From: Hyphococcus sp.
GTDB lineage: Bacteria > Pseudomonadota > Alphaproteobacteria > Caulobacterales > Parvularculaceae
NCBI GenBank assembly: GCA_021776375.1
Contig: JAJFGA010000046.1
Coordinates: 353 to 64,352 of the forward strand
Length of the DNA: 64,000 nt
Reading direction: 5' to 3'
Of the stretch, positions 1-20,902 are shown piece after piece. The position numbers and the translations under genes are program-made. Each line of letters begins with the position of its first letter. Position 1 is the first letter of the stretch. The notes beneath the pieces are model-generated. The model saw only the letters and a program-made list of their open reading frames with translations, was not told the origin of the DNA and searched no databases.

Positions 1-288
1 GAGTGTTTCAACGCCACTCCACGCCCAGAATCGAAGACAATTTACGCACCAGAGTGCAATTGGCCAATGTCTCCTTTTGCGCGCTAATCGGACCAACGGA
101 AGCAAAAAAGACTGGCCGGCTAAAATTCGCCAGAGGCGGTCGAAGGTCGTTGTGATGTGAATGTCGGGTTTCCGGAGTAATTCGTACGAATCGGCGGCAA
201 TTTTCCAATCTCATCCAAGTACCGGCAGGAGATCCGGAAGCAAAAAATCGCAGTGCTACTCGAAGAAGGACGGGCGGAGAGGATAAAT

Positions 289-924
289 TTAGCGGCTCGG
301 CTTGGGGCGAGCCGTTGCTGCGAGCGCAGCCACTGCCGCAAGCTTGTGTTTCGCCTGCCAAGGTGGTCCGACTGTCTTACCCATCTCCAAAAGAAAAATG
401 TTGATGTCTTCGCAGCCGACCACTGACGCGGCTTCGTTAAATACTTTCTCGCGGTCGTACCAATAGACGGACCAGCCACGCGCCGTAGCCGCTGTCGCCA
501 ACGCTTCTCGATACATGACGGAATCGGCGACGGTCTGTGCGCGACTGTCCATGATGCGTTCTTCGATTGTCGGCGGCAGTTTCGGGCATTTGCGGATTGC
601 GATCGTTGAGATGGGAAAATCCGAATCTGCAACCAGCGCCTCAAGACTGGCGCGCGCGCCGTGGGCCGCTGCCTCGTGAACGAGCTCAATTAACTCGATC
701 GCCTCTTCAAGCGAAATCTCACGTGACCACGCGCTGTTTTTGTAGCGACCTACTGCCCAGGCCCCTTCATGATGGTAAGGGTGGGTTGGCAATCCGCCTT
801 CCGTTAAGTCTATGCGGCGGCGATCAATAAGCTCGCCATCAGACGAGACAGTAACAAGGTCCGCCGAATTACCATGTTCGGCGACTCCAACGGCCGCATT
901 TCGCGTTGTTCGTTCTCGTACCAC
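289..924 (-). CDS. Conserved hypothetical protein (N-terminal GVAEHGNSA motif, possibly RNase H-like fold)
   Basis: ORF 289..1032; probable GTG start at 924 after a GGGAGG RBS; co-directional with the DUF1428 gene. Confidence 0.65.
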   Translation of the reverse strand: MVRERTTRNAAVGVAEHGNSADLVTVSSDGELIDRRRIDLTEGGLPTHPYHHEGAWAVGRYKNSAWSREISLEEAIELIELVHEAAAHGARASLEALVADSDFPISTIAIRKCPKLPPTIEERIMDSRAQTVADSVMYREALATAATARGWSVYWYDREKVFNEAASVVGCEDINIFLLEMGKTVGPPWQAKHKLAAVAALAATARPKPSR

Positions 925-1000
925 GCATTCCTCCCGCTTGGGGTTGGTGTCTGAAGAATACTGGGTCTCCATCCTGGGTTCGGGACCATCGGCTTGACAG

Positions 1001-1357
1001 TCAGCTTTTGTGATAGGCAAGCATCGGTTCAAAGCCGCCCATAATCATGCGCTTACCATCGAAGGGCATTTTTGCCAGTTCCGTTATTCTTGGGTCGGTC
1101 CACATGCCTTTATGCGCAACGGCGCCGGTTTTGCGGTCGGGCCAGACGACCCAAGAAAAGACGATCTTCTCGCCAGGCAAGGCTTTTACGGCTCGACGGT
1201 AATCCGTGTGCTCGCCATCGGGAACTTCAAGTTCCCAGTTTTCGAAAATTTCAACCGCTCCAAAATCTTTGGCGACCTCTGCAAACACCTTTGTCATCGC
1301 AGCATAAGCATCTTTGTCAACTTCGGGCACAGGCAGAATATATCCGTTCACATACAT
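1001..1357 (-). CDS. DUF1428 family protein
   Basis: MYVNGYILPVP...DYRRAVKA...VFSWVVWPD...MPFDGKRMIMGGF is typical of DUF1428; AAGGAG RBS. Confidence 0.9.
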   Translation of the reverse strand: MYVNGYILPVPEVDKDAYAAMTKVFAEVAKDFGAVEIFENWELEVPDGEHTDYRRAVKALPGEKIVFSWVVWPDRKTGAVAHKGMWTDPRITELAKMPFDGKRMIMGGFEPMLAYHKS

Positions 1358-1621
1358 GTTCTAAACTCCTTTAGCCTTCGAGGTGATCATTTTACAAGGT
1401 GGAAACAATCGCAACTACGGCGGACCCCGCCGAGATGAAAGGGCGTTATGGTAGTGAATATTTGCCCATTTTCGGCGGACCGGAGCGGGAACTATAGAAC
1501 CGTCGCTCGAATGCGGCACGATTGAATTTTCGATATCGGCGCAAAATGAGTACATCAGCCCGCTTTCACAAGCACGTTAAGTCAACGGCGGAAATAGCGA
1601 ACAACGTTTATGCTTTTTGCC

Positions 1622-2470
1622 TTACTCAAAATATCTCGCCAAGTTTGCAGTGTCGCCCGTACCCCGCACGCTGCGACAGTAATAGCAATCGCCTGTGGCC
1701 TCGGTCATTTTCTTCGAAACCGCGCCTTGATCGCCGCGATATGTCTGAAATGTATAAGGAACATGTATGCCCGTGACGAGTTTCATAAACGCTGTCATTC
1801 CAAGAGACGCCACAACGCCATTGACCGAGACGACCGACGGTCCAGCTTCAGACAGAGAGCTTGTTTTTACTCCGTAGACCGCGTCTTCATTTTCGCGCAT
1901 TTCACGTGAGGCCAAAAACCGACGGACGTCATCCGGATCGAGTAGGTCAAGGCAATGTAAGCAACCATGTTCACCGTTGATGATGGCGATGCGTCCACCA
2001 AACTTCCCCGGTTCCGGCACGTCCGACGCCATGTCGATGAGAGTTTTCTCATACGCCAAACAGGCTTCATTGAGGAAAAAGCGAACTCCGTCGTCATCTA
2101 CGCAACCGAGAACATAATCGGTGCGTTTGATTGCTTCCAATGCAGTGGTTGAAAGCAAATCCGCATGGATCGGTTCAACTGTAATGCTCGGGTCGATTAA
2201 ACCGATTTGGCGACTTGCTAAATCAACTTTTTTAGATCCGGGAATGGGGTCATCGTGCCAGACGCCAAGATACCGATTGCGATTCGAAAGTGAGATTTCT
2301 TGGTTATCTACTGGCGTAATGTAGCCGACGCCAAGCAGCGCGGATTGAACAACCACGTGACTGCCGAGACCACCGGCGCCGGCAATGAGTATTCGTGTTC
2401 GCCTGAGCGCTGTCTGCCCGCCCTTGCCAAAAAGGCGTTCATTTCGATCAAATCGCTGGTTGCTCATCAT
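1622..2470 (-). CDS. ThiF/E1-like ubiquitin-activating enzyme (BilD/BubD-like)
   Basis: GAGGLGS nucleotide loop, SNRNR, GCVDD, Zn-binding CLHC and CYYC pairs; last gene of the Ubl-E2-JAB-E1 operon; start at 2470 or 2467. Confidence 0.9.
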   Translation of the reverse strand: MMSNQRFDRNERLFGKGGQTALRRTRILIAGAGGLGSHVVVQSALLGVGYITPVDNQEISLSNRNRYLGVWHDDPIPGSKKVDLASRQIGLIDPSITVEPIHADLLSTTALEAIKRTDYVLGCVDDDGVRFFLNEACLAYEKTLIDMASDVPEPGKFGGRIAIINGEHGCLHCLDLLDPDDVRRFLASREMRENEDAVYGVKTSSLSEAGPSVVSVNGVVASLGMTAFMKLVTGIHVPYTFQTYRGDQGAVSKKMTEATGDCYYCRSVRGTGDTANLARYFE

Positions 2471-2975
2471 TCCATCCATGTAATGACCGATTAGTTGGAA
2501 CGCTGAGCGCCCCCGCGGTCTCTATGCCCGCTAGCGGTTCAGGAATCTTCGCGTCGTGATGCCAAACTAGCGCGTCATACCCTGTTGGTGAGACGACAAT
2601 TGCGAGATAAGGGCGCATTTTTAGGCGCCACCGCATGTGTGCGACCGTTTCCTTCAATCCCATTCGATCAGCAATCGAAAATCCCGCGGGCCAAGGGCCT
2701 GGGTGCGAATGAAACTCGACGAGCGAACCAGAGGCAAAGTGGGCCCGCTTGATTAAGTTGATACGCGCCTCGTCCGTGAGCTCAATATAATCTGTTTCTT
2801 GCTCACGGAAATCGTGCTGGTTGAGAAAAACAGCATCAATCGGCTTAAACCGCGTGACGCCATTTACATCGACGTCGCAAACGAGAAATGCTGCTTGTTC
2901 CTTTTTCGTATGGCGCGGCAGTAAATGTTCCCATAGACGGTTGCGTAAATCCGCATCAAGATTGAGGATAATCAT
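2448..2975 (-). CDS. JAB/MPN metallopeptidase (Ubl-processing, BilC/BubC-like)
   Basis: N-terminal Glu (KEQAAFL) and EFHSHP...FSIAD (HxH-S-D) JAMM motif; ATG at 2975 just after the E2 stop. Confidence 0.88.
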   Translation of the reverse strand: MIILNLDADLRNRLWEHLLPRHTKKEQAAFLVCDVDVNGVTRFKPIDAVFLNQHDFREQETDYIELTDEARINLIKRAHFASGSLVEFHSHPGPWPAGFSIADRMGLKETVAHMRWRLKMRPYLAIVVSPTGYDALVWHHDAKIPEPLAGIETAGALSVPTNRSLHGWNDEQPAI

Positions 2976-2979
2976 CCTA

Positions 2980-3369
2980 TCAAACTCCCTCGCAAAGTCG
3001 GTGGACAAAAGTACGGACCCACCCCCAGAGATTCGATCCGCTTTTAACGTCTGCGGTCGCACGCCATCCTTGCGGCTGCCAAGATAGAAATCGCCAGCCG
3101 CCTTGAAATGGCGGTTGATGTTGCGCTGACGCGGTTTGCGGCGGCGCGCCGTTTAGCGAGAGCTCGTTGGGCACGAAAAACCCATAAGGCTCCGCGCCCG
3201 GATGACCTTCGGTCACAGCAAACACTGCTGAAAATTCCGCCGGGCTCCACCCTGGAGGGGCTTTGAGGGCGTTGACGCGGAACCAGTGCATGGCTCCGCT
3301 GGCGAGATAGTCAACGTCAGCGTAATGCTGGCGAAGCAGGGCCAGCTCGGAGGCGATCCGATCGTTCAT
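2980..3369 (-). CDS. Prokaryotic E2/UBC-like protein (Prok-E2 family E-like)
   Basis: PPGW...HPGAEPYGFFVP...WRFLSW...W pattern; coupled to the Ubl gene (TAAATG); operon context. Confidence 0.8.
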   Translation of the reverse strand: MNDRIASELALLRQHYADVDYLASGAMHWFRVNALKAPPGWSPAEFSAVFAVTEGHPGAEPYGFFVPNELSLNGAPPQTASAQHQPPFQGGWRFLSWQPQGWRATADVKSGSNLWGWVRTFVHRLCEGV

Positions 3370-4023
3370 TTACGCCCCCCGCTTGAAACAAAGCTTCTTA
3401 CCGTATGAGAGACCTGGACGAAGTTTGATGATCTCGCCCGGCTTGAGCGTTCGCTCGTTCTGATCTTCATCGACCTCGATCACGCCGATCGATACGTCCC
3501 ATCCACCGATCTCCGCGATTTCCTCCGTCGTGATCGTGCCCTTTGGCCAAGGCAGAAAATCGCCCTCAACGCAGATTTTGAATTTCTTGGGTTTGCGCGA
3601 AATGATGCGCTCGACGCCTTCGCGTTTAAGCCGGACGTTCGTTCCTGGTTCAATAACCCGGTCGCCATCTGAATCGAGAAGGAGTTCGTGCTCACTTGGG
3701 ATTTCGCCGAAAGTGCGCAGTTCGACGTCTGAGATCGCCTCATCGCCCCATTCGAAACCGCGTTCGTTTAACGTGCACGTGTAAATCCGATCATTCTCAA
3801 ATGAGCGAAATAAGGGATTAGTTAACGTCCGCAGATCAACCATTTCGTCAAGGCCGATGGACCGGGCACCGCGCCCCTCGATGAGGATTAGGATAAATGC
3901 GCTCGCAGGGCTCAGGCCTGCATCATCGCGAAGTTGACGTCCGGTTGGCGTTACATCGTCAATTTCATAGTTTTGTCCATCGATCGGAATGACGATGGCC
4001 GCGGTTTTTACAACAGCAGTCAT
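3370..4023 (-). CDS. Multi-ubiquitin domain protein (three beta-grasp repeats, C-terminus KRG-A)
   Basis: Repeats IDGQNY..TPTGRQL, LNERGFEW..ISDVEL, VEGDFLPW..ITTEEI; penultimate Gly; GGAGA RBS before ATG 4023. Confidence 0.85.
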   Translation of the reverse strand: MTAVVKTAAIVIPIDGQNYEIDDVTPTGRQLRDDAGLSPASAFILILIEGRGARSIGLDEMVDLRTLTNPLFRSFENDRIYTCTLNERGFEWGDEAISDVELRTFGEIPSEHELLLDSDGDRVIEPGTNVRLKREGVERIISRKPKKFKICVEGDFLPWPKGTITTEEIAEIGGWDVSIGVIEVDEDQNERTLKPGEIIKLRPGLSYGKKLCFKRGA

Positions 4024-4117
4024 TTTGACTTCTCCAAGATTCTCCGCCGAACCCATTCCGGCGGTTCAGACTCTTGAAGCGCCCCACCATTCAGACTAAG
4101 GTGCTGTATGAGTCTCG

Positions 4118-4169
4118 ATATAGACAGTCTATATGGGGACGCATATTGGGGTCAAGTCCAATTATGGAC
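4118..4169. promoter_or_regulatory. Palindromic operator candidates between the Ubl operon and the Xre-RES pair
   Basis: Perfect ATATAGAC-A-GTCTATAT (4118-4134) and GTCCA-ATTA-TGGAC (4156-4169) in the divergent intergenic region. Confidence 0.5.
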
Positions 4170-4189
4170 GAAACGGAGGGTCACAATGT

Positions 4190-4579
4190 ATGTCTGATAG
4201 CAGCCCCGCGGCCCGGGTGGGCGCGGGGGAAATTTCGATTCCCGCCGCAATGGAAGCTTTCTCAAATCTCGCCGACGTTTGGGATATTTCTACCGACGAG
4301 CAAATCAACCTGCTCGGTTCGCCCGGTCGGTCCACTTTCTTCAAATGGAAGAAATCGGGCGGAAACCTGCCGAACGACACGCTGGAGCGGATCTCGCATA
4401 TCCTCGCGATTTTCAAAGCGCTGCAGATCGTGTTGCCCGATGAGACCGCTGCCGACGAGTGGATAAAGAAAAGCAACGATTATTTCGACGGGCGGAGCGC
4501 TCTTGAAGTCATGCTCGATGGCAAGGTCGTCGACATTTACAAAGTGAGACAGTATCTCGATGCGCAACGCGGCGGTTGA
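4190..4579 (+). CDS. Xre/MbcA/ParS family antitoxin
   Basis: LLGSPGRSTFFKWKK HTH, TLERISHILAIFKAL, ADEWIKKSN..FDGRSAL, VRQYLDAQRGG; GGAGGG RBS before ATG 4190. Confidence 0.9.
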   Translation: MSDSSPAARVGAGEISIPAAMEAFSNLADVWDISTDEQINLLGSPGRSTFFKWKKSGGNLPNDTLERISHILAIFKALQIVLPDETAADEWIKKSNDYFDGRSALEVMLDGKVVDIYKVRQYLDAQRGG

Positions 4580-5279
4580 TAGTCCGATCATTGATGTCAA
4601 CGACAAATACTATTTGTTGATTCCGTCACGGTGTCCGCCAATTGCTTTGTTCGAGAGGATCTCAACTGACAATCACGACGAGATTGCCAATGTAGAGTCA
4701 CTGACGAATCCGCGTCTGCAGGAAAAACACCGTCTGATCCGGGCAGATCCGAAATTAGATGATAAGTCGCCTGGCCTGCAAAACTGGAACCATGCCCCTT
4801 TCACCTATGGAAACCCAGAAGGCAGTCGCTTCTTCGGACCCGAATCGCAATGTCTCGAGTTATCTGGCGATATTCAAACAGCACTAGCCGTCTCCGTCGC
4901 CAGGCGGGAGAGATTTCTGTCGCGAACGTCCGAACCGCGAATCAATTTGGATATGCGGGTTATTACCCGACAGGTTCGCGGCAAATTTATCGATGGAAGA
5001 AGATGGCCGCTGGATCTTAAGAACGAAGATTATCGCGGTATGGGCGCGGAAATCAAAACAATGGATAACGTTGACGGTGTTCTCTTTAGATCGCCTGAGC
5101 GCCCAACAGGTGAGCGAATAGGAGTGCTCAACGGGGCGACGCTTGATACCGCCGTGCAAGCTGATCACTATCGTTACGTTTGGGATGGTACTCGGATTGG
5201 ATCGCTCTACGCATTCAATGGCGGTGAGGTAATCGACCCATGTGATCTCATCAATGAAGAAACGATCCTGGCCGCATGA
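4560..5279 (+). CDS. RES-domain protein (MbcT-like, possibly degenerate)
   Basis: LIPSRCPP, ESLTNPRL, APFTY..GSRF, RERFL..TSEP...DMR, GVLFRS; overlaps the antitoxin gene end. Confidence 0.82.
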   Translation: MRNAAVDSPIIDVNDKYYLLIPSRCPPIALFERISTDNHDEIANVESLTNPRLQEKHRLIRADPKLDDKSPGLQNWNHAPFTYGNPEGSRFFGPESQCLELSGDIQTALAVSVARRERFLSRTSEPRINLDMRVITRQVRGKFIDGRRWPLDLKNEDYRGMGAEIKTMDNVDGVLFRSPERPTGERIGVLNGATLDTAVQADHYRYVWDGTRIGSLYAFNGGEVIDPCDLINEETILAA

Positions 5280-5490
5280 CATCTGAAAAAGTTCTCAAAT
5301 TTCGGTGAATTTTCGAGAGATAAACGGGACACTTTTGATATTTCGTGACAGACAAGCCTTTGTTTTTATTGACGTGTGTGGGCATATAGGAGCGCTTCGC
5401 CCGCGCCGTATGAACGCGGCTGAATAGCCGTCGGGTTTCGTCACCATGATCATCTACCCCAATTTTGAAAGAATGCGTGCGTTGTCGCGC

Positions 5491-5521
5491 GAGTTCGAGT
5501 CCTTGTTTAGGACTCGAACTC
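5491..5521. repeat. 12-7-12 palindrome, copy 1 (putative recombination site)
   Basis: GAGTTCGAGTCC-TTGTTTA-GGACTCGAACTC; same motif at 12565-12595 and 18497-18527. Confidence 0.75.
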
Positions 5522-5845
5522 CATAGGCTGGTGCCTGGTTTTGCGCGCCATTCAGACGTACAGACGCATTATGACAACCGTCAATTTCTCGCCATTAACA
5601 GCCGGTGGTGATGAGGCGCTCGAGTGACGGTTTCATCCTCAAACCGGATAACAATTGTATGGTGCAACGATTTAGAAGCCGGTGTGCGTCTGGTCACGAC
5701 CGCCTTACGTCAAATCTGACATCTGGGATGCTGCCAGGCATATGAATATGCGTATGGCTGCAAACACATTTGCCAAGTTAATTGAAACCTGAGACCAATC
5801 AGATTAGTTTCTAATCTGGTAAATATTTGTCGTGGAGGCTCGAAT

Positions 5846-7066
5846 TTGTTGCGGCTGCTTGTCGTCGATAACACCCGAAAACATGGCGGCGCGTTCTTGA
5901 GCTTGCTCGACATCATTGAGAACTTTAGATCGCGCGGTGTGAATGTCACCCTCATCGCAAGTCAAACGACCCCTGAGTATCTTGACCGCGTCAAAACAGA
6001 CCGGTTCATCTATATGAATTTTTACCGCCGTGAGTTCGATAGAACTCCCGAACCATCGAGCAAAGAGAGAAACACCCTTCACGGCTTATGGAAACGCACC
6101 GCCAGATTCGGCCCAACTATCGAGTGCTTTCGTGAGATCTCACGACTTTACAAGGTAACCAGTCGTCTATCATTCGACCTTATCTACCTTAACAATAGTG
6201 CTTCCTCGCAATTTTCGTGTATATTATTTGGAGCACTCAAGAATATTCCGATCGTGGTTCACACTCGCGGATTTGAAGAGATAGGATTTTGTCAGCGTTT
6301 CATTTCCCGGTTCGTAAAAAAATATATCGCGATATCCCGCGCGGTCGAAAGAAATCTAGTACGGGGCGGCATTCCGGCCGAAAAAATCAGTCAAATTTAT
6401 AATCCATTCAATATTGCAAACTACCTGAACAAAGAGCCTGAGCGTTTTGCCTTAAAATCTGAATTTCCAGCGACTAAATTGTTGGGGCACTTCGGAAGAC
6501 TAATTCCCTGGAAGGGTGTTTTCGAACTTGTTCAATCTCTTGCAGTTGACCTTCGGCATAACAAGACTTGGCATCTGTTGCTGGTTGGAGAGACCGCGAA
6601 CCTCGCCCCGGAATACAAATCCCGGATCGAATGTCTGATCGAACAAGAGGGCATTGAGGAAAACGTACACTTTTTAGGGATGCGGGCTGACTACTTGGAG
6701 ATAATGTCAGGATGCGATGTTGTGATACATCATTCTATAGAACCCGAACCGCTCGGGAGAGTGGCAATCGAAGCGTTTGCTGTCCGAACGCCTGTCATAG
6801 CTTCGCATCTTGGCGGCCCGTCTGAAGTAGTGGAAGATGATGTCGATGGACGATTATTCGATCCGTACAGTACGCAATCATTCCGATCTGCATTAAAGGA
6901 TGCTATAAATAATCGAAAGCGATATACCTTGAATGGACAAAAGAAATTTTTGGATATGTTCGGGGCAAGCCAATTCGATGCGCTGTTTTCAATCGTACAG
7001 GAGAATGCAATGCATACGGATAGAGACCGTTCAGCGAGCTTGAGTTTCACGAAGCCAGACAGTTAG
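5846..7066 (+). CDS. Glycosyltransferase family 4 (GT-B)
   Basis: HGGA N-terminal motif, GRLIPWKG, EPLGRVAIEA, GGPSEVV; TTG start after GGAGG. Confidence 0.9.
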   Translation: MLRLLVVDNTRKHGGAFLSLLDIIENFRSRGVNVTLIASQTTPEYLDRVKTDRFIYMNFYRREFDRTPEPSSKERNTLHGLWKRTARFGPTIECFREISRLYKVTSRLSFDLIYLNNSASSQFSCILFGALKNIPIVVHTRGFEEIGFCQRFISRFVKKYIAISRAVERNLVRGGIPAEKISQIYNPFNIANYLNKEPERFALKSEFPATKLLGHFGRLIPWKGVFELVQSLAVDLRHNKTWHLLLVGETANLAPEYKSRIECLIEQEGIEENVHFLGMRADYLEIMSGCDVVIHHSIEPEPLGRVAIEAFAVRTPVIASHLGGPSEVVEDDVDGRLFDPYSTQSFRSALKDAINNRKRYTLNGQKKFLDMFGASQFDALFSIVQENAMHTDRDRSASLSFTKPDS

Positions 7067-7886: not shown

Positions 7887-7974
7887 TTCTCATCTATCTT
7901 GTCTACCCAACGCAGCTATTCAGCCTATCTATGTCGACATAATAAAGGGCCAAAAAATAAACCTGTAACACGCA

Positions 7975-9904: not shown

Positions 9905-9939
9905 GACGAACTCCCATGACTGGGCTCAGGATGCGAAAT

Positions 9940-10443
9940 TTATTTGGACTGAGGACTATCATCACGACGCCTCGCCAAGTCACTTATCTGATCGCCTTCC
10001 AGCCTTTGCATCACCCAGCCTGTCAGCGTTGTGGGCTCAAGATGCTGATAAAATTCAAGCGCTTTCTCGTTCCAGTCGAGCACCCACCAATCGATCCGAG
10101 CAAAATCATTCGCGATGCAATGCTGAGCCAATTTTCGAAGAAGCCCTGTTCCAACCTTATCGCCCCTGTGCGCGGGTTTCACATAAAGGTCCTGAATGAA
10201 AACCCCTGGGCGCGCAGTCCAGGATGAAAACGTCAAGTAAAAAGCAATTAGACCAACCACGGCGCCTTCTTTTTCCGCAACAAATGCACGAAGCAATCGG
10301 TTAGAGCTGAATAGAACTTCGTTAAGCGCATTGTCGTCTAGCTTTGAGCTCGCTCCCTCAAAAGTTGCAAACTCATCCAGTAGTGTTCGCACAACCGAAA
10401 CATCACTTGGGTGTACAGCACGAAAATTTAGCCCGCCATTCAT
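9940..10443 (-). CDS. GNAT N-acetyltransferase (SSAT-like)
   Basis: TFSSWTARPGVFIQDLYVKPAHRGDKVG, WVLDWNEKALEFY. Confidence 0.9.
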   Translation of the reverse strand: MNGGLNFRAVHPSDVSVVRTLLDEFATFEGASSKLDDNALNEVLFSSNRLLRAFVAEKEGAVVGLIAFYLTFSSWTARPGVFIQDLYVKPAHRGDKVGTGLLRKLAQHCIANDFARIDWWVLDWNEKALEFYQHLEPTTLTGWVMQRLEGDQISDLARRRDDSPQSK

Positions 10444-11711
10444 TCTGAGACCACCTTAAGCGTTTGCTCGAGACTATCGCAGATCTGGTCGGCTTCTACT
10501 TCTGACAGAATAAGCGGAGGGCGAAACTTAATTACGCCGCCCCTTCCGAATCGCGAAGAACGAAGAAGCAATCCGAATCGCCGTGCTTTGTCACAGATCT
10601 CCAATGCGAGGTTTGGATCTTCATTTCCTTCTCTGTCGACAACCTCCACGCCATTCATGAGGCCTACTCCTCTAACATCTGCAATGAAATCAAACTTCTG
10701 CTTCAGCTGATTGAGGCCTTCTCGTAGACGCTGACCACTCGTGCGGACATTCTGTAAGAAAATGGGATCATCAATTACACTTAGCGCAGCATTGGCTATA
10801 TGTGCCGCGAGAATATTTGCCCCGTAGGTAAATGAGAGGTCACCGGCGTCTTCAAAAATAAAGTCTTCGGTTGTCAAAACGGCAGCGATTGGCGCGCCGG
10901 CGCCGAGACCCTTCGCTACTGTCAACATATCAGGTCGAATGTCGAATGCATCAGCTGCAAACATGTGACCGGTGCGCCCAATGCCCGTCTGAACTTCATC
11001 GAAAATCAGCGGAATTTTATGTTCATCGCAAAAAAGCCGCACCGCCTCCAGATAACCGCTAGGGGGAACAATGTTTCCCCCGCTTCCCAGAATTGGCTCG
11101 ATTATGAAGGCCGCAGGTTGCGCAACACTCGCATGCTCAAGAAATTCCTCAATTCGCGAAACGCACATTAATCGACAAGCTTGTCGCTCTTGACCATAAA
11201 AACATCGTCGACAATTTGGCTCCGGCACCTTCAACGAAGGAAAAAAAACGGGCGGATATGGTGCGCGCCGGAAACTGTTGCCGGAGATGGCAGTGGTCGC
11301 GAATGTTTGCCCATGATGGGCGCGAAACAAGCTTATGATCTCTGCTCCGCCTGTTTTCCGCATCGCCATTTTAACCGCGGTTTCATTGGCGGCAGATCCG
11401 CTGCTCACTTTGAGGTGCGCGCGCGTAACACCCTCAGGAGCGGCCAAAACCAATCGCTGCGCAAGCTCGTCGATCGCGTCGGTGCGAAACCAAGATGGTA
11501 TGTGCGTCGGCACGTCGGCCGCTTCTTTGATAGCTTTAGTGACGGCTGGGTGTCGATAACCCAAGCTTAAATTGAACGTGCCAGAGGCGCAATCAAGGTA
11601 CCGGTTACCCTCTGAATCTATCGCATACACGCCTTCGCCAGTGACGATACGTGTATCTTCACGCGGATATCCAAAGTATTCGTCAATATTCAAACCGCGC
11701 CCCCAATCCAT
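10440..11711 (-). CDS. Class III PLP-dependent aminotransferase
   Basis: SGSAANETAVK, EPILGSGG, FDEVQTGIGRTG, PDMLTVAKGLG, VRGVGLM. Confidence 0.93.
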   Translation of the reverse strand: MDWGRGLNIDEYFGYPREDTRIVTGEGVYAIDSEGNRYLDCASGTFNLSLGYRHPAVTKAIKEAADVPTHIPSWFRTDAIDELAQRLVLAAPEGVTRAHLKVSSGSAANETAVKMAMRKTGGAEIISLFRAHHGQTFATTAISGNSFRRAPYPPVFFPSLKVPEPNCRRCFYGQERQACRLMCVSRIEEFLEHASVAQPAAFIIEPILGSGGNIVPPSGYLEAVRLFCDEHKIPLIFDEVQTGIGRTGHMFAADAFDIRPDMLTVAKGLGAGAPIAAVLTTEDFIFEDAGDLSFTYGANILAAHIANAALSVIDDPIFLQNVRTSGQRLREGLNQLKQKFDFIADVRGVGLMNGVEVVDREGNEDPNLALEICDKARRFGLLLRSSRFGRGGVIKFRPPLILSEVEADQICDSLEQTLKVVSE

Positions 11712-11744
11712 TCAAGTGAAAAACACCAGCTCTGTATCTTGTTC

Positions 11745-12307
11745 GTGTCCGTCCGGTGACGACCGCTATCAGCTTACCGCCTCGAAGCGCCAGAGCAAGA
11801 GTTCATCGATTTTATTGATCTGGTGATCGCCGATGCGTGCGAGGACGTCGGTGAGCCTGGCCTTTGGGTTGACGCCGTTGAGCTTGGCGGTCTCGATGAG
11901 GGAGTGGATCGCGGCGGCGCGCGTCCCGCCAGCGTCGGATCCGACGAACATATAGTTCTTTCGGCCCAGGGCCATTCCTTTCACGGACCGTTCCGCCGTG
12001 TTGTTATCAAGTTCACAAACGCCGCTCTCAAGATAAGGCCCCATGCGGTTCATACGCGAGATGGCGTAGCGGATCGCTTGCGCCAGCGCCGACTTCCGGG
12101 AAGCCCGAAAGGCACATGCCCTGGCCGTCCCACCACAAAACCTTCAACGGTTCCTGAAATAATATGAATAAGTGACCCATACAAAGGGGGCTGGACAATA
12201 CCGTCCCAACCACGTGGCAGACGGCAGCGATCTATCGGCCGCCGAAGTCCAACAGATCTGTCAAAGTGCAACGGTTGCAGCACTAGAGTGAGCCCGCAGG
12301 GGCTTAC
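11745..12307 (-). mobile_element. Internally deleted IS66-family relic
   Basis: TnpC C-terminus (LDNNTAERSVK..LGRKNYMF..SLIETAKLNG, 11769-12053), a TnpB scrap (KVLWWDGQGMCL, ~12110-12150), a GTAAGC-type end at 12307 and a degenerate end at 11745. Confidence 0.8.
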
Positions 12308-12423
12308 GCGCTCCGTCACTACCGAAAACTTAGTTTGATAAAGGACGTGTCCTACGTTTTGTAATGACCGCTAATGCGTGTATTGCCGTCAATTATTTCG
12401 GGGCTGCGGTACGACAATTCATC

Positions 12424-12728
12424 GCCATTTTGCGAGACCTCCCCACTCCGGCTTTATGTCTATAATGCGCGCCAATTTTGCCATTCGTAATCAGACGAAA
12501 GTGCCTTCCAAACCCAACAGATCTTTCTTCGATTGGCCTAGCGGGCCGATTGAGTTCGGCGTGCGAGTTCGAGTCCCTGTTTCGGACTCGAACTCCCGCC
12601 CCAAAACAGGCCGTAATTTTTGGGTAACAAATTGGCATACATTTTGGATAACATTCCGTACTCGGAATAATGTTAACTGATTGTTTTTGTTATATTTTAT
12701 AAAATCGTTATCTCTGCTTCTCGGGCGT
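12424..12728 (+). repeat. ~300-bp non-coding direct repeat, copy A
   Basis: Aligns nearly without gaps to 18356-18658 (offset 5932); contains the 12-7-12 palindrome (12565-12595) and an arm-like triplet (12617-12655). Confidence 0.9.
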
Positions 12729-12938
12729 CAAAAGGCCAATAGTGACGTAAAAAAGCCAGAATTCAAACATTCAAATCAGACGTATCAATGTCGCATTCGG
12801 GCCAGAAATGCTTATCCAACCCTACGAATCCTGATGTCTGGTTTGCCCGCAATTCCCCCGTTAACGCGCAAATGATTGACCGTCATGTTCTCGCAGAAGC
12901 AGAATTTCGCGACGCCGAAGACGAATGACTGGTATTGA

Positions 12939-13418
12939 TCAGTAAGAGTCTTTCGAAACCTCATTCAGCTGTTCAAGCCAGATTTGGTGAAACTTATGCA
13001 TTCGCCCCGGCATCAAAGCCTTCGCGATACTGGGAATGAAGCCGTTCTGAGTTTCCTCTGTCACGACGTAGCAGCCCTGTGGTTGCGGTGAAATTAACCA
13101 AGCGTGGTACACGGACATACCGAAGGACTCTGATGACCAGGCCAATCGCTCCGTCGGCTGGAATTCCTCAACTGTGCACTCGATTGTCATTCCAAAGGTT
13201 TTCCAGCGAAAACGCGTTCCGAGTTCAAGTGTATCGCTCGCTGCATCCAACAGTCTCACATTCGATGCGTTCGGATACCAGTCCGGCCAATCTGTCGCAC
13301 GAATAAGATAGCTCCATACCGCTTCACTGGACGCATCCATCTGCAAGCTATTGACGACGTGAACAGCACTAGCGTCCGGATAGTATCTTTCTGGCCAATT
13401 GATGTCATTTGAGGCCAT
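12939..13418 (-). CDS. SRPBCC/polyketide cyclase family protein
   Basis: INWPERY, VWSYLIRATDWPDWY, FRWKTFG, VYHAWLI, VTEETQNG; GGAGGG RBS before ATG 13418. Confidence 0.88.
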   Translation of the reverse strand: MASNDINWPERYYPDASAVHVVNSLQMDASSEAVWSYLIRATDWPDWYPNASNVRLLDAASDTLELGTRFRWKTFGMTIECTVEEFQPTERLAWSSESFGMSVYHAWLISPQPQGCYVVTEETQNGFIPSIAKALMPGRMHKFHQIWLEQLNEVSKDSY

Positions 13419-13564
13419 GCACAACTTCCCTCCGTACGCGCCAAGGTCAATGCCCACTTATAACACACCACATTCATTCTTATGTGGCTTACGACTGCAT
13501 CGCTCGTCCGCTTTGACGCCAAAACCGGGCGCTAATTGCCATTGCCGCAGAGTTCACGCAGGCG

Positions 13565-13775
13565 CTGCGGCGTTGGTCTGATATTGCTCACTGTTCCTTC
13601 TGATTTCGTAATCCGTGATTTTGATTTGTCCCCCTTCGCAGACAGGCTAGACGCTTCGGCGATCCGGTTATCAATTTCATACTGCTTCGCGAACGGATCG
13701 TTCACGATCGCTCGCTCCACTCCTTCAAGCCGTTTGATTTCGTCGCGGACGCGGGCGGCGTCTGTAAAACCTCCA
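13565..13775 (-). pseudogene. uvrB: Fragment of a uvrB 3' end (UVR domain and tail)
   Basis: FTDAARVRDEIKRLEGVERAIVNDPFAKQ...[20 protein letters not shown] aligns with this window's UvrB tail [29 protein letters not shown]...[20 protein letters not shown]. Confidence 0.85.
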
Positions 13776-13913
13776 TCGGCGGGACGCAGGTCGTGAAATG
13801 CAGCGTGATTGCGCCGAATAACGCGAGACAGTATTATTCGTTTTGTGGTAGTCGATTCAATACGCATGTTGCGTAACGCAAATCCGAAAAAACAATCCGC
13901 TGGAGGATAGAAA

Positions 13914-14645
13914 ATGTCGACGAAAACGCCTCGAACACGTTTCAAATCAACCGGTCTTGCTGTTTCTTTGGGGGCGATGGTTGCTTCATACGCAGGCTCG
14001 GCGTCCGCAGATCCGCCTTGCAGTTTTTTCAAAGATTTATCGCAAACGCAGCGCAACGCCTATCGGACCGATGCGGCGACTAATGGCGGTTATGTTTTCG
14101 CGTTTCGTCATTCCAACAAGACGAACCAAACCAGCCCGCCGAATGAGGGACTGACGCAAAGCGGCAAAGACGCTGCGACCGCCGCGCATCAAGAGCTTCA
14201 TTTTGCATTAAACCCGCCTGGCGCCGTTGACGTTTGGGAGATGTTATACCCGCCCAACAAACGCGTGACACAAACCCGTGTTGCGGTCATGCGAGGCTGC
14301 GATGTCGACAGATTGCCGTGTACGGCGCGGCGCAATGTTACTTCTTTTCCACGAAATCAAGATTTCCGACCGCATATTGGCAGTGGTCATGCAGCGATTG
14401 GCGACAAGAATATATTTGTATTCGCCAACAGCAGTTCCATGAGCGCGTATGGCTCCGCCCCGCAAATCAGTTGCCTTGAGGGAATTGTCTACAAAGCAGA
14501 CACCGTTTCAGGGACGGGCCCTTTTAAATGCTACCGCTTCTTTCCGGCTGAGTGGGCCGCCGCCGATCCAGCAAACGCGACCTTGCCGGCGTGGGCGCGA
14601 AAACCGAGCGATACGAGCGTCAATCCATCGGCTGAATGCCACTGA
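13914..14645 (+). CDS. Secreted histidine phosphatase-superfamily-like protein
   Basis: Signal peptide (ASA-DP); FRHSNK, GLTQSG and RVTQT motifs; several Cys. Confidence 0.6.
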   Translation: MSTKTPRTRFKSTGLAVSLGAMVASYAGSASADPPCSFFKDLSQTQRNAYRTDAATNGGYVFAFRHSNKTNQTSPPNEGLTQSGKDAATAAHQELHFALNPPGAVDVWEMLYPPNKRVTQTRVAVMRGCDVDRLPCTARRNVTSFPRNQDFRPHIGSGHAAIGDKNIFVFANSSSMSAYGSAPQISCLEGIVYKADTVSGTGPFKCYRFFPAEWAAADPANATLPAWARKPSDTSVNPSAECH

Positions 14646-14969
14646 CAACGGTTGGCTAACGTAACGGTAGTTTTGGGTTGACGCTTGTTTCTCGATACCG
14701 CCGCCGCGGGGCGCAATTCCCAGCGTATGTTGAATGACGTTTTAAGAGATAACAATTGCCGTTCATGGTTCTGGAGTGAAGGGCTTCAAAGGGCCAAAGG
14801 CGGACGTTCAGCCTAGAGATTTTTACGACTGCAACGCGCGCAAGATCGGAAATAGCCGGTCCTAGCGGTCCAAACACTTGTTTCACCTCGCTGAATTCAA
14901 AAACTATTGTCTTAGTTTTTCGTCGTGTTAATGTTTTGACAATGTTGGAGTTTACTGGGGAGACTCTTG

Positions 14970-15524
14970 ATGATCTACCAATACAAAACTACTATTTTTG
15001 CTGCATTCCTGTTTCTGGCAGGGTGTGCGGGCGTGTCGGTAAAAGACGTATCTACTGTCCGCGCTGATAACAAAGCGGACGGTTTTCGATATTACGAGAA
15101 ATCCGCATTTCTAATAATTACCCCTGACGGAAAAGGCGGTCTCGAAACAAAAGTTGAATTTATTTGCGATACAAGCAGGAAGCGGGCGGCTGATCCCTAT
15201 GCAATCCTCGCCAACAACAAATCAACTCTATCCTTCGACAAGGGCTGCCTGACTGGAACTGAAACAACTATCGACGAAACGCCGTTGCCGAAGGCCGTGG
15301 TTGAAGCGGTAAAAACTGTTGCGGGCGCGGCTTTGAACGCTTTTCTGGATAACGCTGAAACGCCGCCCGAAGAAAAGGCGTTCCCGGGGCCGGCTATCTA
15401 TCGATTATCCATTGAAAACGGCGCGGTCGTATTGCGCGGCGATTCCCGCCAAGAACCAATTTACGCCACGATTTCTCAGCCTGTGAAGAAAGAAGAATCA
15501 TCAGCGTCGGGAGTCAGCCAATGA
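14970..15524 (+). CDS. Hypothetical lipoprotein
   Basis: Lipobox LAGC; DGFRYY motif; first gene of a coupled three-gene operon. Confidence 0.75.
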   Translation: MIYQYKTTIFAAFLFLAGCAGVSVKDVSTVRADNKADGFRYYEKSAFLIITPDGKGGLETKVEFICDTSRKRAADPYAILANNKSTLSFDKGCLTGTETTIDETPLPKAVVEAVKTVAGAALNAFLDNAETPPEEKAFPGPAIYRLSIENGAVVLRGDSRQEPIYATISQPVKKEESSASGVSQ

Positions 15525-16669
15525 TCAAGGAATTGCCTCGAAAACTCTTTGTGCTTACTGCCTTAGCATCGCTAATCGGCGGCTGCTCGACATTCGTAAC
15601 CAGCAAGCGCGAGGATGCCAAGAAGACTGGCTTTACGTATTCGCTTCCAATACCGGCTTTGCTTGCGACGCCAAAAAGTGACGGCACAGTTAAAACTGAA
15701 ATTGTTTATCTCCCCGATCCGCAAAACCGCTATTATTATAAGGCGAGGTCTTTTATTTCGAGCTACACGCTCAAAGTCGAACTTGAAAACGGCAATCTAT
15801 TAAAATCGGTATCCCTCGATGCAAAAGGCGGCGACGTGGCCGTTGAGGCGGTAAAAGCATCAGGCGCGATCGGCAAAGCCGCAATTGATGCAGAGGCTGC
15901 TAATCGCGCCGAGTCTGAAAAGGAAGAAAAAGCAATTTTGGAGCGCGTGCGACTTGCACAACTTGCCGTGGAAAAGGCGCAGGCAAAAGCCGATACATTG
16001 AAGGAATTGGCTGGCGAAAACCCGACCGCCGAGCAAACTGCCATGATTCATGCAGCGAAAATCGAGCTTGCCATTGCGAAAGCGGAACGCGACGCTGCCG
16101 TGGAAGGCGCGCCGGCGGTCGCCAACAGCCTTCTAGATGCTCCCGAGACTCCCGATTGCGCTTGGGGACCTGTGCTTTATCGCATTGAGATGAATGAGAA
16201 TTCTGTTTGGCTAGAACGCATGCCATTCATGGACGGTGCAAATACTATTGCTTCGGCCAATTCTGGCTGTGGAAACGTATCAAACAAACAACGTCAATTT
16301 AGTACTTCGCGGGTTGGGATTCCTCCTGACACACCCACGCCGGCAGCGAAGGAACCAAGCTTCGAATTCGACGGCAGCCGCGTATTGACGCAAGGTGATA
16401 ACAGTCGCTATGAATTCACGCTGAAAGTTAAAGATGGTCCTGTTGGATCCATTGACGCACAGTCTTCCGTGCTTTCATTGACGGTTGCTGGCGGAACCAA
16501 TCAGCGGGTTAATTCAATTCCCACATATACACGCCAAACCGATCCGGAACGCCTTACTGTGTCCTTACCTGCGGGCCTAGGGACCGGCAAATACAGCCTC
16601 ACGTTTCAGTATAAATACGCAGGCGACACGAAGGATGCTGTTGCAGAAGTCGAGTTTGAGATTCCCTAG
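15521..16669 (+). CDS. Hypothetical lipoprotein with coiled coil and C-terminal Ig-like domain
   Basis: Lipobox IGGC; N-domain resembles the previous gene (TGFTYSLP..TPKSDG.VKTEIVYL); ATGA overlap. Confidence 0.75.
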   Translation: MIKELPRKLFVLTALASLIGGCSTFVTSKREDAKKTGFTYSLPIPALLATPKSDGTVKTEIVYLPDPQNRYYYKARSFISSYTLKVELENGNLLKSVSLDAKGGDVAVEAVKASGAIGKAAIDAEAANRAESEKEEKAILERVRLAQLAVEKAQAKADTLKELAGENPTAEQTAMIHAAKIELAIAKAERDAAVEGAPAVANSLLDAPETPDCAWGPVLYRIEMNENSVWLERMPFMDGANTIASANSGCGNVSNKQRQFSTSRVGIPPDTPTPAAKEPSFEFDGSRVLTQGDNSRYEFTLKVKDGPVGSIDAQSSVLSLTVAGGTNQRVNSIPTYTRQTDPERLTVSLPAGLGTGKYSLTFQYKYAGDTKDAVAEVEFEIP

Positions 16670-18120
16670 TGCCAAATTTGACCTGCGTGCTGGCGAGGAT
16701 CGACGACAAGCATGACGCACCGCGTTTCTTCGAAAACGTAGCACCGCGAATAAAAAAGACATTCACTGACGCATCAGACGGCGCGATAAACTTGGACATC
16801 GTCGACCGCACCGATGAAGCGCCGACCCATCGCCCGAATTCGCCGCTTGCGGGAAGACATTTTGCGCTAGATCTCCATCGTGAATTACGATTTTACGCGG
16901 CAAATCCACTTGACCAGCCTGTCGAGACAGTCGTCGCACTTTATGGCGGCGTCTATCATCACAATGATAGCCCATATGGAATGATGTTCGACCCAGGATT
17001 TATCCCGGATGCCGGCGAATTGTTTTTGAATAAACCGCACTTGGAAGGTCGGCCCCGGGAAGGCTGCGCGATCTTTCTCGGCGCGATTGAACGCGATCGG
17101 AAAGTGGATCCCGATTTGTTATGGGACCAATTCGAACAACAAACGACATTTACTACAATTCACGAATTGGGCCACGTATTCAATTTGCCGCACAAAAAAC
17201 CGCCGATAAATTATATGAGTCAAAGTGACCGGCGCAGTGTGTACAATCCCAATTTCCACGAATTTATTCCAGAACACGAGACCCGCCTTTCACGAGGAAA
17301 ATCCAGCAAATCTGTGTGGCCGGGCGGCAGCAAATTCGGCGATTCGGGTTTCCTCGACGACCATTCCGATTGCAATTGGAACACTAAATCAAAAATGATC
17401 GATGATTTGAGATTTGAGATTTCGATCTCGCGCGATCATGCCCGATATTTTGAACCGTTCGAGCTTGACATGCGACTGCGGGTTAAACGGGGGTCAACGA
17501 AAACATACCGAATTTCCGACATTGTCGACCCGGGGTATGACCAATTCCGTATTTTCATCGAAGAACCCACCGGCGAACGGCGTTTGTACAAAAGCCCGCG
17601 CCACTATTGCCCGCACGAAAAATTCCTGACCATTGGGCCTAGCAGAGAGTTTCGGCGCGACATAAGTATTTTCGGCGAGTCTGGGGGATACACATTTCGC
17701 CGCGCAGGCGTCCATCGCATTTGGGCGGAGATTCATTTGGGGCGGCGCGGCGTACTCACGTCAAACAAAATTGGGATAGAAATCGAACTTGAGCGATCGG
17801 AGTCCCGAAAAGACCAAGACGTTCGAATTGCTTTGACAAGAATGGCGTCTGCCAACGTGTTGTATCACCGATTGGATCGGCACCATGGCAACGGAACCAA
17901 GACGCTGGTGTCGCTTCTTGAAAGCTATGCCGACATTCCCACCGCCGGCGCGATTCAATATTCGGTGGGTCGCGCCCTATTGGAGCCGAGCGTACGAATT
18001 CAAGAGAAGCGCAAACAACGCGGAATGGCATGTTTTGAAGAAGCATTGAAAAATCCAAATCAATTGAGCGTCAGACAGATAGAAATCGCTGAGAAATGCT
18101 TAGGGGACGCAACAAATTGA
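16669..18120 (+). CDS. Zinc metalloprotease (metzincin-like)
   Basis: TIHELGHVFNLPH zinc motif followed by a NYMS Met-turn; GTG start overlaps the upstream stop. Confidence 0.8.
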   Translation: MPNLTCVLARIDDKHDAPRFFENVAPRIKKTFTDASDGAINLDIVDRTDEAPTHRPNSPLAGRHFALDLHRELRFYAANPLDQPVETVVALYGGVYHHNDSPYGMMFDPGFIPDAGELFLNKPHLEGRPREGCAIFLGAIERDRKVDPDLLWDQFEQQTTFTTIHELGHVFNLPHKKPPINYMSQSDRRSVYNPNFHEFIPEHETRLSRGKSSKSVWPGGSKFGDSGFLDDHSDCNWNTKSKMIDDLRFEISISRDHARYFEPFELDMRLRVKRGSTKTYRISDIVDPGYDQFRIFIEEPTGERRLYKSPRHYCPHEKFLTIGPSREFRRDISIFGESGGYTFRRAGVHRIWAEIHLGRRGVLTSNKIGIEIELERSESRKDQDVRIALTRMASANVLYHRLDRHHGNGTKTLVSLLESYADIPTAGAIQYSVGRALLEPSVRIQEKRKQRGMACFEEALKNPNQLSVRQIEIAEKCLGDATN

Positions 18121-18224
18121 GCATTTCTAATTGAAATTTTTCAATCGCCGCGCGGCATTCTATAGAAAATAGAGTCAATTGGAAAAGAATGTGATTTAAA
18201 ATTACTGCACTCCAAGCCATGCTA

Positions 18225-18346
18225 GGAGCGGATTCTGTGCGATGAACTACCGTTCACAAATTTTTCGCAAAATGTCCGCTATGAGGATGAATCTGCCGTT
18301 TGATCTGCTACCAACGAATGTCCGCAATGTGTTGCGGCGATCAATT
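18225..18346. repeat. Cluster of degenerate ~30-bp palindromic units at 46-bp spacing
   Basis: Units start at 18225, 18271 (AATGTCCGCT-N10-ATCTGCCGTT) and 18317; similar clusters at 66-190, 12787-12862 and 14733-14808. Confidence 0.55.
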
Positions 18347-18355
18347 GAATCCGCA

Positions 18356-20817: not shown

Positions 20818-20902
20818 TTGCGCGACGTAAAGGTCGGTGCGAGCGATAATTTACATTATCGTTTGTTTACAATGGCTTAATCAATTGAAAGGGAAGGTGT
20901 TC

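What the first reader, a model, noticed from the sequence alone, without database searches (positions are those of the whole stretch)
66..18346. Island cargo is divided by degenerate ~30-bp palindromes, often at ~46-bp spacing: possible integron-like cassette system
Seen: almost every junction between unrelated modules carries a unit resembling AAYGNCNGNT-N10/11-ANCNGNCRTT. Examples: 18271 AATGTCCGCT-ATGAGGATGA-ATCTGCCGTT; 14779 AAGGGCTTCA-N10-GGCGGACGTT; 14733 AATGACGTTT-N11-AATTGCCGTT; 12833 GATGTCTGGT-N10-TTCCCCCGTT; weaker units at 66, 160, 1584, 5623, 12363, 13503 and 14663. Units recur in phase: 18225/18271/18317, 14733/14779 and 12787/12833 (all 46 bp apart) and about 66/112/160. The 5623 spacer (TCATCCTCAA) is a 9/10 match to the reverse complement of the 18271 spacer. 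I noticed none in the 43 kb of core sequence. Established: tyrosine recombinases act on ~30-bp inverted-arm/spacer sites. Inference: these are recombination sites or scars of a gene-capture system that stacks cassettes; they are not attC sites and I know of no description of them.
Basis: partly seen in the sequence, partly recalled or inferred. Interest (0 to 1): 0.85.

Follow-up and report, generated by a model that had tools for sequence, protein, structure and literature searches.

The report
Worn gene-cassette recombination sites in island
The short palindromes between the genes of this genomic island are worn copies of a widespread family of 30-base DNA sites at which gene blocks are found swapped between bacterial genomes, plasmids and phage P2, likely cut and rejoined by a very small recombinase that was not found in this genome, which points to an integron-like gene-shuffling system whose enzyme and site layout I could not find described.

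Summary
The units are real: a profile trained only on relatives finds 11 strong sites in the island (0.5 expected) and none in the core, in 45-47-bp phase. They are worn members of a family found across Proteobacteria: 12-bp arms around a 6-bp core (or 7-bp), in doublets and triplets between genes. Shared modules in other genomes and plasmids end inside these sites, and arms do not covary, so they behave as double-stranded recombination sites, not attC hairpins. The island's own DUF6538 integrase is probably not the enzyme (4 of 40 relatives' islands have arrays). The best candidate is a ~210-aa tyrosine recombinase lacking a core-binding domain, whose gene is itself flanked by sites with the window's core sequences; it was not found in this 84%-complete genome, nor in one complete relative with fresh arrays. 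The same sites flank fun(Z) of phage P2, a locus with a 2004 report of site-specific recombination (not held). It works like Acinetobacter pdif modules but fails membership. This scan reported the system before on other DNA. Enzyme assignment is untested.

The parts
66..190 (.). Site cluster 1: 7-bp-core unit 66-96 (core TGCGCGC), very worn 6-bp-core unit about 115-144 (TCGCCA), 7-bp-core unit 160-190
   Evidence: 14.1 and 8.7 bits for the outer units; middle unit below background as a whole
289..1357 (-). Two cargo genes (about 210-aa unknown; DUF1428). Relatives' copies of the first lie between two units in G072 and next to a unit in G075 and G093, in other gene contexts; 3 other relatives' copies have no adjacent unit
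5530..5652 (.). Site cluster 2: 5530 (TGCGCGC), 5577 (TCGCCA), 5623 (GAGGAT on minus strand); spacing 47 and 46. 5601-5647 is 89% identical to an intergenic stretch of G071
   Evidence: 8.4, 6.9, 9.3 bits
5700..12330 (.). 6.6-kb block (glycosyltransferase, aldo-keto reductase, GNAT, aminotransferase III) with an IS66 remnant at 11769-12330 and a probable IS66 end at 5700-5759, lying between directly repeated TCGCCA cores at 5577 and 12410
   Evidence: Pfam; blast; IS66 label of the 5700 end is recalled, not tested
12363..12485 (.). Site cluster 3: 12363 (7-bp core), worn 12410 (TCGCCA), 12455 (7-bp core)
   Evidence: 18.0, -8.7, 13.4 bits
12424..12721 (.). Copy of a 300-bp direct repeat (82% identical to 18356-18652): last units, a hairpin (third copy 5486-5522) and arm-like repeats inverted to 20781-20822; the part from 12567 on is the end of the DUF6538 element
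12741..12953 (.). Site cluster 4: worn 12741, 12787 (GGGCCA), 12833, 12924; spacing 46, 46, 91
   Evidence: 0.3, 6.2, 14.3, 16.3 bits
12939..13457 (-). Single-gene module, polyketide cyclase/START-like; relatives' best matches lie in a core operon without units
13449..13533 (.). Site cluster 5: 13449 and 13503 (54 apart, out of phase)
   Evidence: 9.1 and 15.4 bits
13914..14645 (+). Single-gene module, 243 aa, no family found
14733..14854 (.). Site cluster 6: 14733 (7-bp core), 14779 (GGGCCA), 14824 (7-bp core); spacing 46, 45
   Evidence: 9.8, 10.4, 10.7 bits
14967..18120 (+). Three-gene module (two predicted lipoproteins, 483-aa protein with an HExxH motif); no homologue of the last in 151 family genomes or the plasmid set
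18224..18417 (.). Site cluster 7: worn 18224, 18271 (GAGGAT, best unit), left arm at 18317, right half-unit 18357-18371, 18387 (7-bp core)
   Evidence: 24.1 bits for 18271; left arm 14.0 bits at 18317
18326..18356 (+). End of an IS30-type element left inside a unit core; same end follows a transposase on contigs C44 and C27
   Evidence: IS30 label from plasmid hits H17, H19
18356..18652 (.). Second copy of the 300-bp repeat
19373..20770 (-). DUF6538 tyrosine integrase (465 aa), tRNA-linked; relatives in 48 of 152 family genomes; probably the island platform, not the cassette enzyme
20903..20976 (-). tRNA-Gly(TCC), island attachment site; 50-bp duplicate of its 3' end on contig C83 beside another integrase

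Best explanation
The units are worn members of a widespread family of 30-bp sites (12-bp inverted arms around a 6-bp core) at which gene modules are found exchanged between genomes, and they were likely recombined as double-stranded DNA by a ~210-residue tyrosine recombinase acting in trans, whose gene was not found in this assembly. Shown: site anatomy, 45-47-bp doublets and triplets, a few core classes, module ends inside the cores, and the recombinase gene sitting between such sites. Inferred: two subunits bind the arms and exchange strands across the 6-bp core; identical cores in direct orientation excise a module; two alternating core classes let modules be swapped through cointegrates, as for pdif modules; the 7-bp-core units are accessory binding sites. 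In this island matched cores are GGGCCA (12787, 14779, direct), TCGCCA (115, 5577, 12410, probably 18342, direct) and GAGGAT (5623, 18271, inverted). The tRNA-Gly island served as landing ground; the array now looks decayed and is likely inert.
For: Family and geometry: 119 loci in genome contigs; with a free 12-20-bp gap 86 of 88 seed matches have period 45-47; spacer 10 or 11 in 436 of 464 units. Order: 38 of 68 triplets are GGGTCA-7-GTGCCA and 62 of 171 inter-array segments run GTGCCA...gene...GGGTCA against 1 the other way. A congener (G104) has about 25 sites punctuating single genes over 12 kb behind a tRNA with the window's cores; in 20 family regions 112 of 125 sites lie outside ORFs that cover 72% of the DNA. 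Breakpoints: on an E. coli plasmid (L409) five units bound every module; two other plasmids match up to the end of the GTGCCA core and then carry other cassettes; the recombinase module matches unit-to-unit in Klebsiella and three Pantoea plasmids, the next gene core-to-unit in E. coli; 26 of 159 alignment ends among fetched loci fall in a unit vs 4.0 at random. No arm covariation (85 vs 72+/-7; 125 vs 121+/-10). Enzyme: 23 hits in the first 100 bp behind the stop in 109 loci vs 0-3 in each later bin; 25 of 107 vs 1 of 42 for other tyrosine recombinases (p 0.0014); a 97.9%-identical pair of recombinase modules diverges at GGGCC(A/G) and (T/G)CGCCA cores; five family copies have a GAGGAT-core unit behind the stop. 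R66, K94, H163, R166, H189, Y198 in >=99% of 96 ORFs of 203-231 aa; model matches Cre/XerA catalytic fold with no N-terminal domain.
Against: No recombination was shown. The recombinase was not found in G000 (84% complete), nor in complete G104 which has well-kept arrays, nor in G168, G374, G201; G242 has only a 45-aa remnant beside a unit pair. Only 3 of 12 motif-positive class genomes have it (20 of 400 overall, p 0.018). About three quarters of recombinase genes have no scoring unit beside the stop, and the upstream excess over controls is not significant (24 of 101 vs 4 of 35, p 0.15). Only 1 of the 119 array loci held the gene (39 of them were short). 133 of 159 alignment ends are not in units. 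For the window's own modules no near-identical copy with other neighbours was found, and no contig joint at a unit in 6 runs.
Confidence: 0.68

Rival explanations
1. The sites are recombined by a host chromosome-dimer recombinase (XerC/D or a single XerL-like enzyme), as pdif sites are; the small recombinase is a passenger cassette.
For: G104, G082 and G047 carry a 420-438-aa recombinase 51% identical to the Coxiella plasmid recombinase, with an upstream 12-6-12 palindrome whose arm differs from the unit arm at 4 of 12 positions; G104 has fresh arrays and no small recombinase.
Against: G000, G071, G503 list XerC/D-like hits and no such enzyme, and the same site family is in E. coli plasmids and P2; unit arms are symmetric whereas pdif sites have distinct XerC and XerD arms (PMC13141974 introduction); enrichment is specific to the small recombinase gene.
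Confidence: 0.13
2. The units are REP/REPIN-like dispersed repeats or protein-binding boundary elements; module ends fall there through short-homology recombination or IS30 activity, not a dedicated recombinase.
For: Up to 72 copies scattered over one genome; fixed-distance doublets; IS30-type ends sit in the cores; weak genome-level co-occurrence with the enzyme.
Against: Linkers between units are unrelated in sequence while arms, cores, order and spacing are fixed; breakpoints map to the core edge; strict head-to-tail polarity of modules; no GTAG/CGTC tag seen (REP feature recalled).
Confidence: 0.1
3. The island's own DUF6538 integrase uses the units to stack cassettes behind tRNA-Gly, as an integron integrase does.
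For: Adjacent to the array; units abut three copies of the element's end; a GAGGAT-core unit also lies at the related tRNA-Leu island of G000.
Against: 3 strict matches in 663 kb downstream of 40 related integrases; 4 of 40 loci have arrays; sites are common where this integrase plays no visible part (plasmids, P2).
Confidence: 0.05
4. The units are degenerate attC sites (a CALIN).
For: One site cluster per module, head-to-tail modules.
Against: 30 bp only; arms follow a fixed consensus without compensatory change; no integron integrase (TIGR02249 18.9 bits vs cut-off 265 for the small enzyme, no hit for the island integrase).
Confidence: 0.02

Closest known systems
pdif (dif) modules of Acinetobacter plasmids, XerC/XerD (PMC13141974, introduction read)
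   Same: Accessory modules separated by short two-arm sites with a 6-bp spacer; two alternating module types; identical spacers pair up; insertion sequences hunt the sites (PMC10132070, abstract read).
   Different: Symmetric 12-bp arms unlike dif; extra 7-bp-core units at 45-47 bp; own small recombinase rather than host XerC/D (inferred); on chromosomes, plasmids and a phage across Proteobacteria.
Repeats flanking the Z/fun locus of P2-like coliphages (Nilsson, Karlsson and Haggard-Ljungquist 2004, Mol Biol Evol 21:1; not held; seen as citation; content recalled)
   Same: P2 fun(Z) lies between two units of this family at 15332 (GTGCCA) and 17429 (TCGCTC), the same two cores as on the E. coli plasmid. 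Probably the same sites.
   Different: As recalled, that paper described an inverted repeat in enterobacteria without an enzyme; I could not check its sequence. Core classes, phased accessory units, the small recombinase and the alphaproteobacterial arrays were not found in the papers searched; the passages of a 2026 P2/P4 hotspot study matching my terms do not mention such sites.
Integrons and CALINs (PMC4889954, passages read)
   Same: Arrays of mostly single-gene modules, one site cluster per junction, persisting without the enzyme.
   Different: No attC fold, no IntI, no attI/Pc found; genes in both orientations; that study found no integron, In0 or CALIN in Alphaproteobacteria, where this system is common.
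Cre/loxP and Xer-type simple tyrosine recombinases (PMC8138268, passages read); FimB/FimE (recalled)
   Same: Catalytic fold and RKHRHY set; arm-core-arm site.
   Different: About 210 aa with no room for the core-binding domain that the classification gives all simple recombinases; FimB/E are as small but invert one switch (recalled; weak NCBIfam hit 24.7 bits vs 222).
dif/XerL of Legionellales (PMC9765430, passages read)
   Same: Fully symmetric 10-12-bp arms; a XerL-like gene with a look-alike site occurs in three family genomes.
   Different: One chromosomal site for dimer resolution, not many sites between cargo genes.

Membership tests
Integron / CALIN | attC sites that work as folded single strands (structure kept, sequence free) | tested here: not met
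   30-31-bp units; no excess of compensated changes in 161 and 496 units. IntegronFinder itself not available.
Integron / CALIN | Integron integrase IntI | tested here: not met
   TIGR02249: 18.9 bits vs 265 for the small enzyme; no hit for the island integrase
Integron / CALIN | Array of gene modules each bounded by a site | tested here: met
Integron / CALIN | attI and Pc next to the integrase | not tested
   no promoter scan run
pdif modules | Site made of distinct XerC and XerD arms | tested here: not met
   one symmetric arm consensus fits both halves; not compared with a dif profile
pdif modules | 6-bp spacer | tested here: met
   6-bp cores in few classes; breakpoints at the core edge
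pdif modules | Two alternating module types | tested here: met
   62 vs 1 polarity; alternating cores on L409
pdif modules | Recombination by host XerC/XerD | not testable with these tools
   needs xer mutants
pdif modules | Rep_3/OrfX Acinetobacter plasmid backbone | tested here: not met
   chromosomal tRNA island
P2 Z/fun flanking repeat | Sites flank fun(Z) in P2 | tested here: met
   units at 15332 (18.7/22.8 bits) and 17429 (8.7 bits, one profile only)
P2 Z/fun flanking repeat | Identity with the repeat published in 2004 | not testable with these tools
   paper not held
Tyrosine recombinase (candidate enzyme) | RKHRH pentad plus tyrosine; catalytic fold | tested here: met
Simple YR (CB + CAT domains) | N-terminal core-binding domain | tested here: not met
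   first helix at residue 35 of 215; residues 1-30 low confidence, no secondary structure
Structured RNA family | Rfam match | tested here: not met

The most novel reading that the evidence does not exclude
This is a decayed array of a third bacterial gene-cassette system, next to integrons and pdif modules: a self-mobile, catalytic-domain-only tyrosine recombinase visits genomes and swaps modules at 12-6-12 sites of two core classes, building arrays in alphaproteobacterial islands (where integrons are reported missing), enterobacterial plasmids and the P2 fun(Z) defence slot, with an IS30 subgroup hunting the cores.
Probability: 0.55. Interest if true: 0.85.

Novelty: new variant of a known kind. 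Interest (0 to 1): 0.7.

Why it matters
If the enzyme assignment holds, a common, unannotated site family explains how accessory genes are stacked and exchanged across Proteobacteria without integrons, offers an answer to the reported absence of integrons in Alphaproteobacteria (PMC4889954), and names a candidate enzyme for the variable P2 Z/fun locus, making that 20-year-old question a one-plasmid experiment. A 210-aa recombinase with symmetric arms and natural non-cross-reacting cores would also be an unusually compact cassette-exchange tool. This window is a worn, enzyme-less example, so it adds an instance rather than the best model locus.

Tried and rejected
First profile, from Hyphomicrobiales-rich loci, too narrow for the window (4 hits at >=12 bits). 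DUF6538 integrase as enzyme: rejected. Clustering of ORFs around 167 array loci gave cargo families, no recombinase. Units next to 30 tyrosine recombinases of five motif-rich genomes: 2 loci only. Rfam: nothing but tRNA. Contigs of 6 runs (one probably the source): no joint at any unit; contigs drop rare variants, so this shows nothing about excision. Plasmid blastn of 18120-18370: chance hits and IS30 ends only. A recalled name 'SPIDR' led nowhere. Ten literature searches found no description of the site family or enzyme; PMC3414803 and PMC11551731 passages had nothing on it; subscription papers are not searched and no supplements were read (Smyshlyaev 2021 datasets may class the enzyme). Rows dropped: 23 of 138 recombinase loci (partial, <50% identical or redundant); window-derived L284 excluded from training; breakpoint test kept alignments >=300 bp, >=80% identity, ends >60 bp from a locus end.


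Full report
Setting. The window is contig C41 of a 3.1-Mb, 84%-complete genome, probably an alphaproteobacterium (two-piece tmRNA; inference). Bases 1 to about 20,900 are a lower-GC island behind tRNA-Gly(TCC) at 20903-20976 with a DUF6538 tyrosine integrase. A 50-bp copy of the tRNA 3' end on contig C83, beside another integrase, may be the far end. Cargo: ThiF-JAB-multiubiquitin cluster, Xre-RES pair, glycosyltransferase block with IS66 remnants, and several orphans.

Observation. A stricter palindrome occurs in 16 of 152 family genomes and 12 of 401 class genomes, up to 38 times per genome, with the reversed-pattern control near zero. From such loci, none from the window, I trained a symmetric arm profile (144 units). 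It finds 11 island hits at >=12 bits against 0.52 in shuffles, and none in the core; 10 of the 15 named positions hold, five do not as whole units; seven more units appear. Five distinct pairs lie 45-47 bp apart against 0.06 expected; 13 of 19 hits are intergenic; 8 of the 50 best hits in the genome are in this 0.7% of it. 18326-18356 is an IS30-type end, not part of a unit.

The family. A scan of 185,579 genomes for a perfect unit followed after 12-20 free bases by another arm gave 119 loci, mostly Hyphomicrobiales and other Alphaproteobacteria by record title. In the 80 loci with flanks, 86 of 88 seeds have period 45-47, and 436 of 464 units have spacer 10 or 11. The unit reads as 12-bp arms around a 6-bp or 7-bp core. 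Cores fall in few classes and in fixed order: 38 of 68 triplets are GGGTCA, 7-bp core, GTGCCA, and 62 of 171 segments between arrays run GTGCCA-gene-GGGTCA against one the other way; linkers are unrelated. In the host family the cores are TCGCCA (43 of 161 units), GGGCCA (34) and rarer GAGGAT and GCGCGC types, which are the cores of the window's units. Congeners G071 and G104 have clean arrays, with 59-bp and 38-39-bp doublets as local variants; G104 has about 25 sites between single genes behind a tRNA.

Do modules change at the sites? On E. coli plasmid pERB9a1 five units bound every module. Two other plasmids match it (one mismatch in the 60 bp shown) up to the last base of the GTGCCA core and then carry different right arms and genes. 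The recombinase module aligns unit to unit with Klebsiella and Pantoea plasmids, the next gene from core to unit with another E. coli plasmid, and 24 of 60 listed rows start at the first base of the last core (these rows are related plasmids, not independent events). Among fetched alpha and metagenome loci 26 of 159 alignment ends are in a unit against 4.0 at random; 133 are not. For the window itself the evidence is weaker: the 289-960 gene is a unit-flanked single cassette in G072 and next to units in G075 and G093, but not in three others, and no contig joint was seen at a unit. Arms match a consensus, not each other, as expected for protein-bound duplex sites.

Which enzyme? Not likely the island integrase: 3 strict matches in 663 kb and arrays in 4 of 40 related islands. 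An earlier finding of this scan (e1-9997182) pointed to a tiny recombinase; I then found a remnant beside a unit pair in G242 and a full 215-aa gene followed by a unit in G071. Over 115 non-redundant loci, units pile up within 100 bp behind its stop (23 in 109 loci, 0-3 in later bins) and 100-200 bp before its conserved start (19 in 104); downstream 25 of 107 vs 1 of 42 for other tyrosine recombinases (p 0.0014), upstream 24 of 101 vs 4 of 35 (p 0.15). Near-identical copies of the 750-900-bp module change neighbours at cores, in one clear pair at GGGCC(A/G) and (T/G)CGCCA, and five family copies have a GAGGAT unit behind the stop like 18271. The protein has all six catalytic residues, a confident catalytic-domain model with nothing folded before residue 35, and Cre and XerA as best structural matches; 339 plasmids from many genera encode it. 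Against: it was not found in G000, in complete G104, or in G168, G374, G201; co-occurrence is modest (3 of 12 vs 20 of 400); most copies have no unit that my profile scores. A hit-and-run enzyme fits, but so does a second enzyme, such as the XerL-like recombinase with a look-alike site in G104.

Mechanism. Shown: anatomy, phase, core classes, breakpoints, linkage. From established tyrosine recombinase chemistry: arms bind subunits, strands are exchanged across the core, core identity and orientation decide excision, inversion or fusion. Inferred: the small enzyme is the catalyst; 7-bp-core units are accessory sites that may make up for the missing core-binding domain; two core classes allow pdif-like swaps through cointegrates. 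In this island matched cores could have excised 12787-14779 or 5577-12410, or inverted 5623-18271; the low scores suggest decay. IS30-type elements insert in mid-core: 8 of 10 ends are followed by three bases and an arm of >=0 bits (1.9% background), and ISCfr4 splits a TCGCTC core on a Leclercia plasmid.

What is known. Closest in working is the pdif system, whose defining XerC/XerD arms are absent; integron tests fail. Following a second earlier finding (e1-173288), P2 fun(Z) proved to lie between two units with the plasmid's two cores. Nilsson et al. 2004 reported site-specific recombination at that locus (citation only; not held), so the sites were probably seen once in enterobacteria. Ten searches found no account of the enzyme or site layout; subscription papers and supplements were not seen. 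This scan has reported the system in several other genomes; those notes are leads, not support.

Verdict. Real feature, partly mis-listed; a worn array of a cassette system that works like pdif modules, with a probable small dedicated recombinase. New variant of a known kind; interest 0.7; best explanation 0.68.

Noticed in passing
L313:700-2106, L314:718-2070, L319 (G047, G082, G104): A XerL-like recombinase (51% identical to the Coxiella plasmid enzyme) with an upstream 12-6-12 palindrome, in three family genomes where the Pfam search listed no strong XerC/D hit: possible replacement of XerC/D by a single-recombinase dif system in an alphaproteobacterial family.
   Followed up: partly
window 18326-18371; G000 C16, C17, C27, C44, C51, C83; L226, L525: IS30-type elements insert in the middle of the 6-bp cores, a parallel to IS1202 elements at pdif sites.
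   Followed up: partly
window 1622-4056 (-): Multiubiquitin, 129-aa unknown (E2-like position), JAB and ThiF/E1 cluster, likely a bacterial ubiquitin-like defence system; similar cluster in G001 without units.
   Followed up: partly
window 5486-5522, 12424-12721, 18356-18652, 1444-1542: Three copies of a hairpin and two of a 300-bp end of the DUF6538 element, plus a remnant of its small downstream ORF at 1444-1542: repeated accretion of a minimal 2.5-kb integrase element; also seen in G073 and G077.
   Followed up: partly
window 18767-18973 and about 19200-19350: Two related small ORFs (DxYGDVYWP motif) behind the DUF6538 integrase, also at the C71 island; no family found; candidate directionality factor.
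   Followed up: no
window 4133-5279 (+): Xre-RES toxin-antitoxin pair divergent from the ubiquitin-like cluster.
   Followed up: no
L158-L237: In Hyphomicrobiales the commonest cargo beside arrays is one family of about 325 aa (21 of 167 loci; looks like the expanded ABC substrate-binding family, recalled); cassette traffic may explain its expansion. Arrays also create spurious 'MSALGQKRT'-type ORFs.
   Followed up: no
window 12939-13457 vs L512, L517: The island's cyclase-like gene is 66% identical to a gene in a core operon of relatives and to a copy on G000 C44: possible capture of a chromosomal gene into a cassette.
   Followed up: partly
G000 C14:1457/1503, C43:20402/20448, C76:791/838, C37:109714/109760, C47:9923/9969: Further phased unit pairs elsewhere in the same genome.
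   Followed up: no
L090:1501, L094:1501: Single units directly behind the stop of two unrelated long tyrosine integrases.
   Followed up: no
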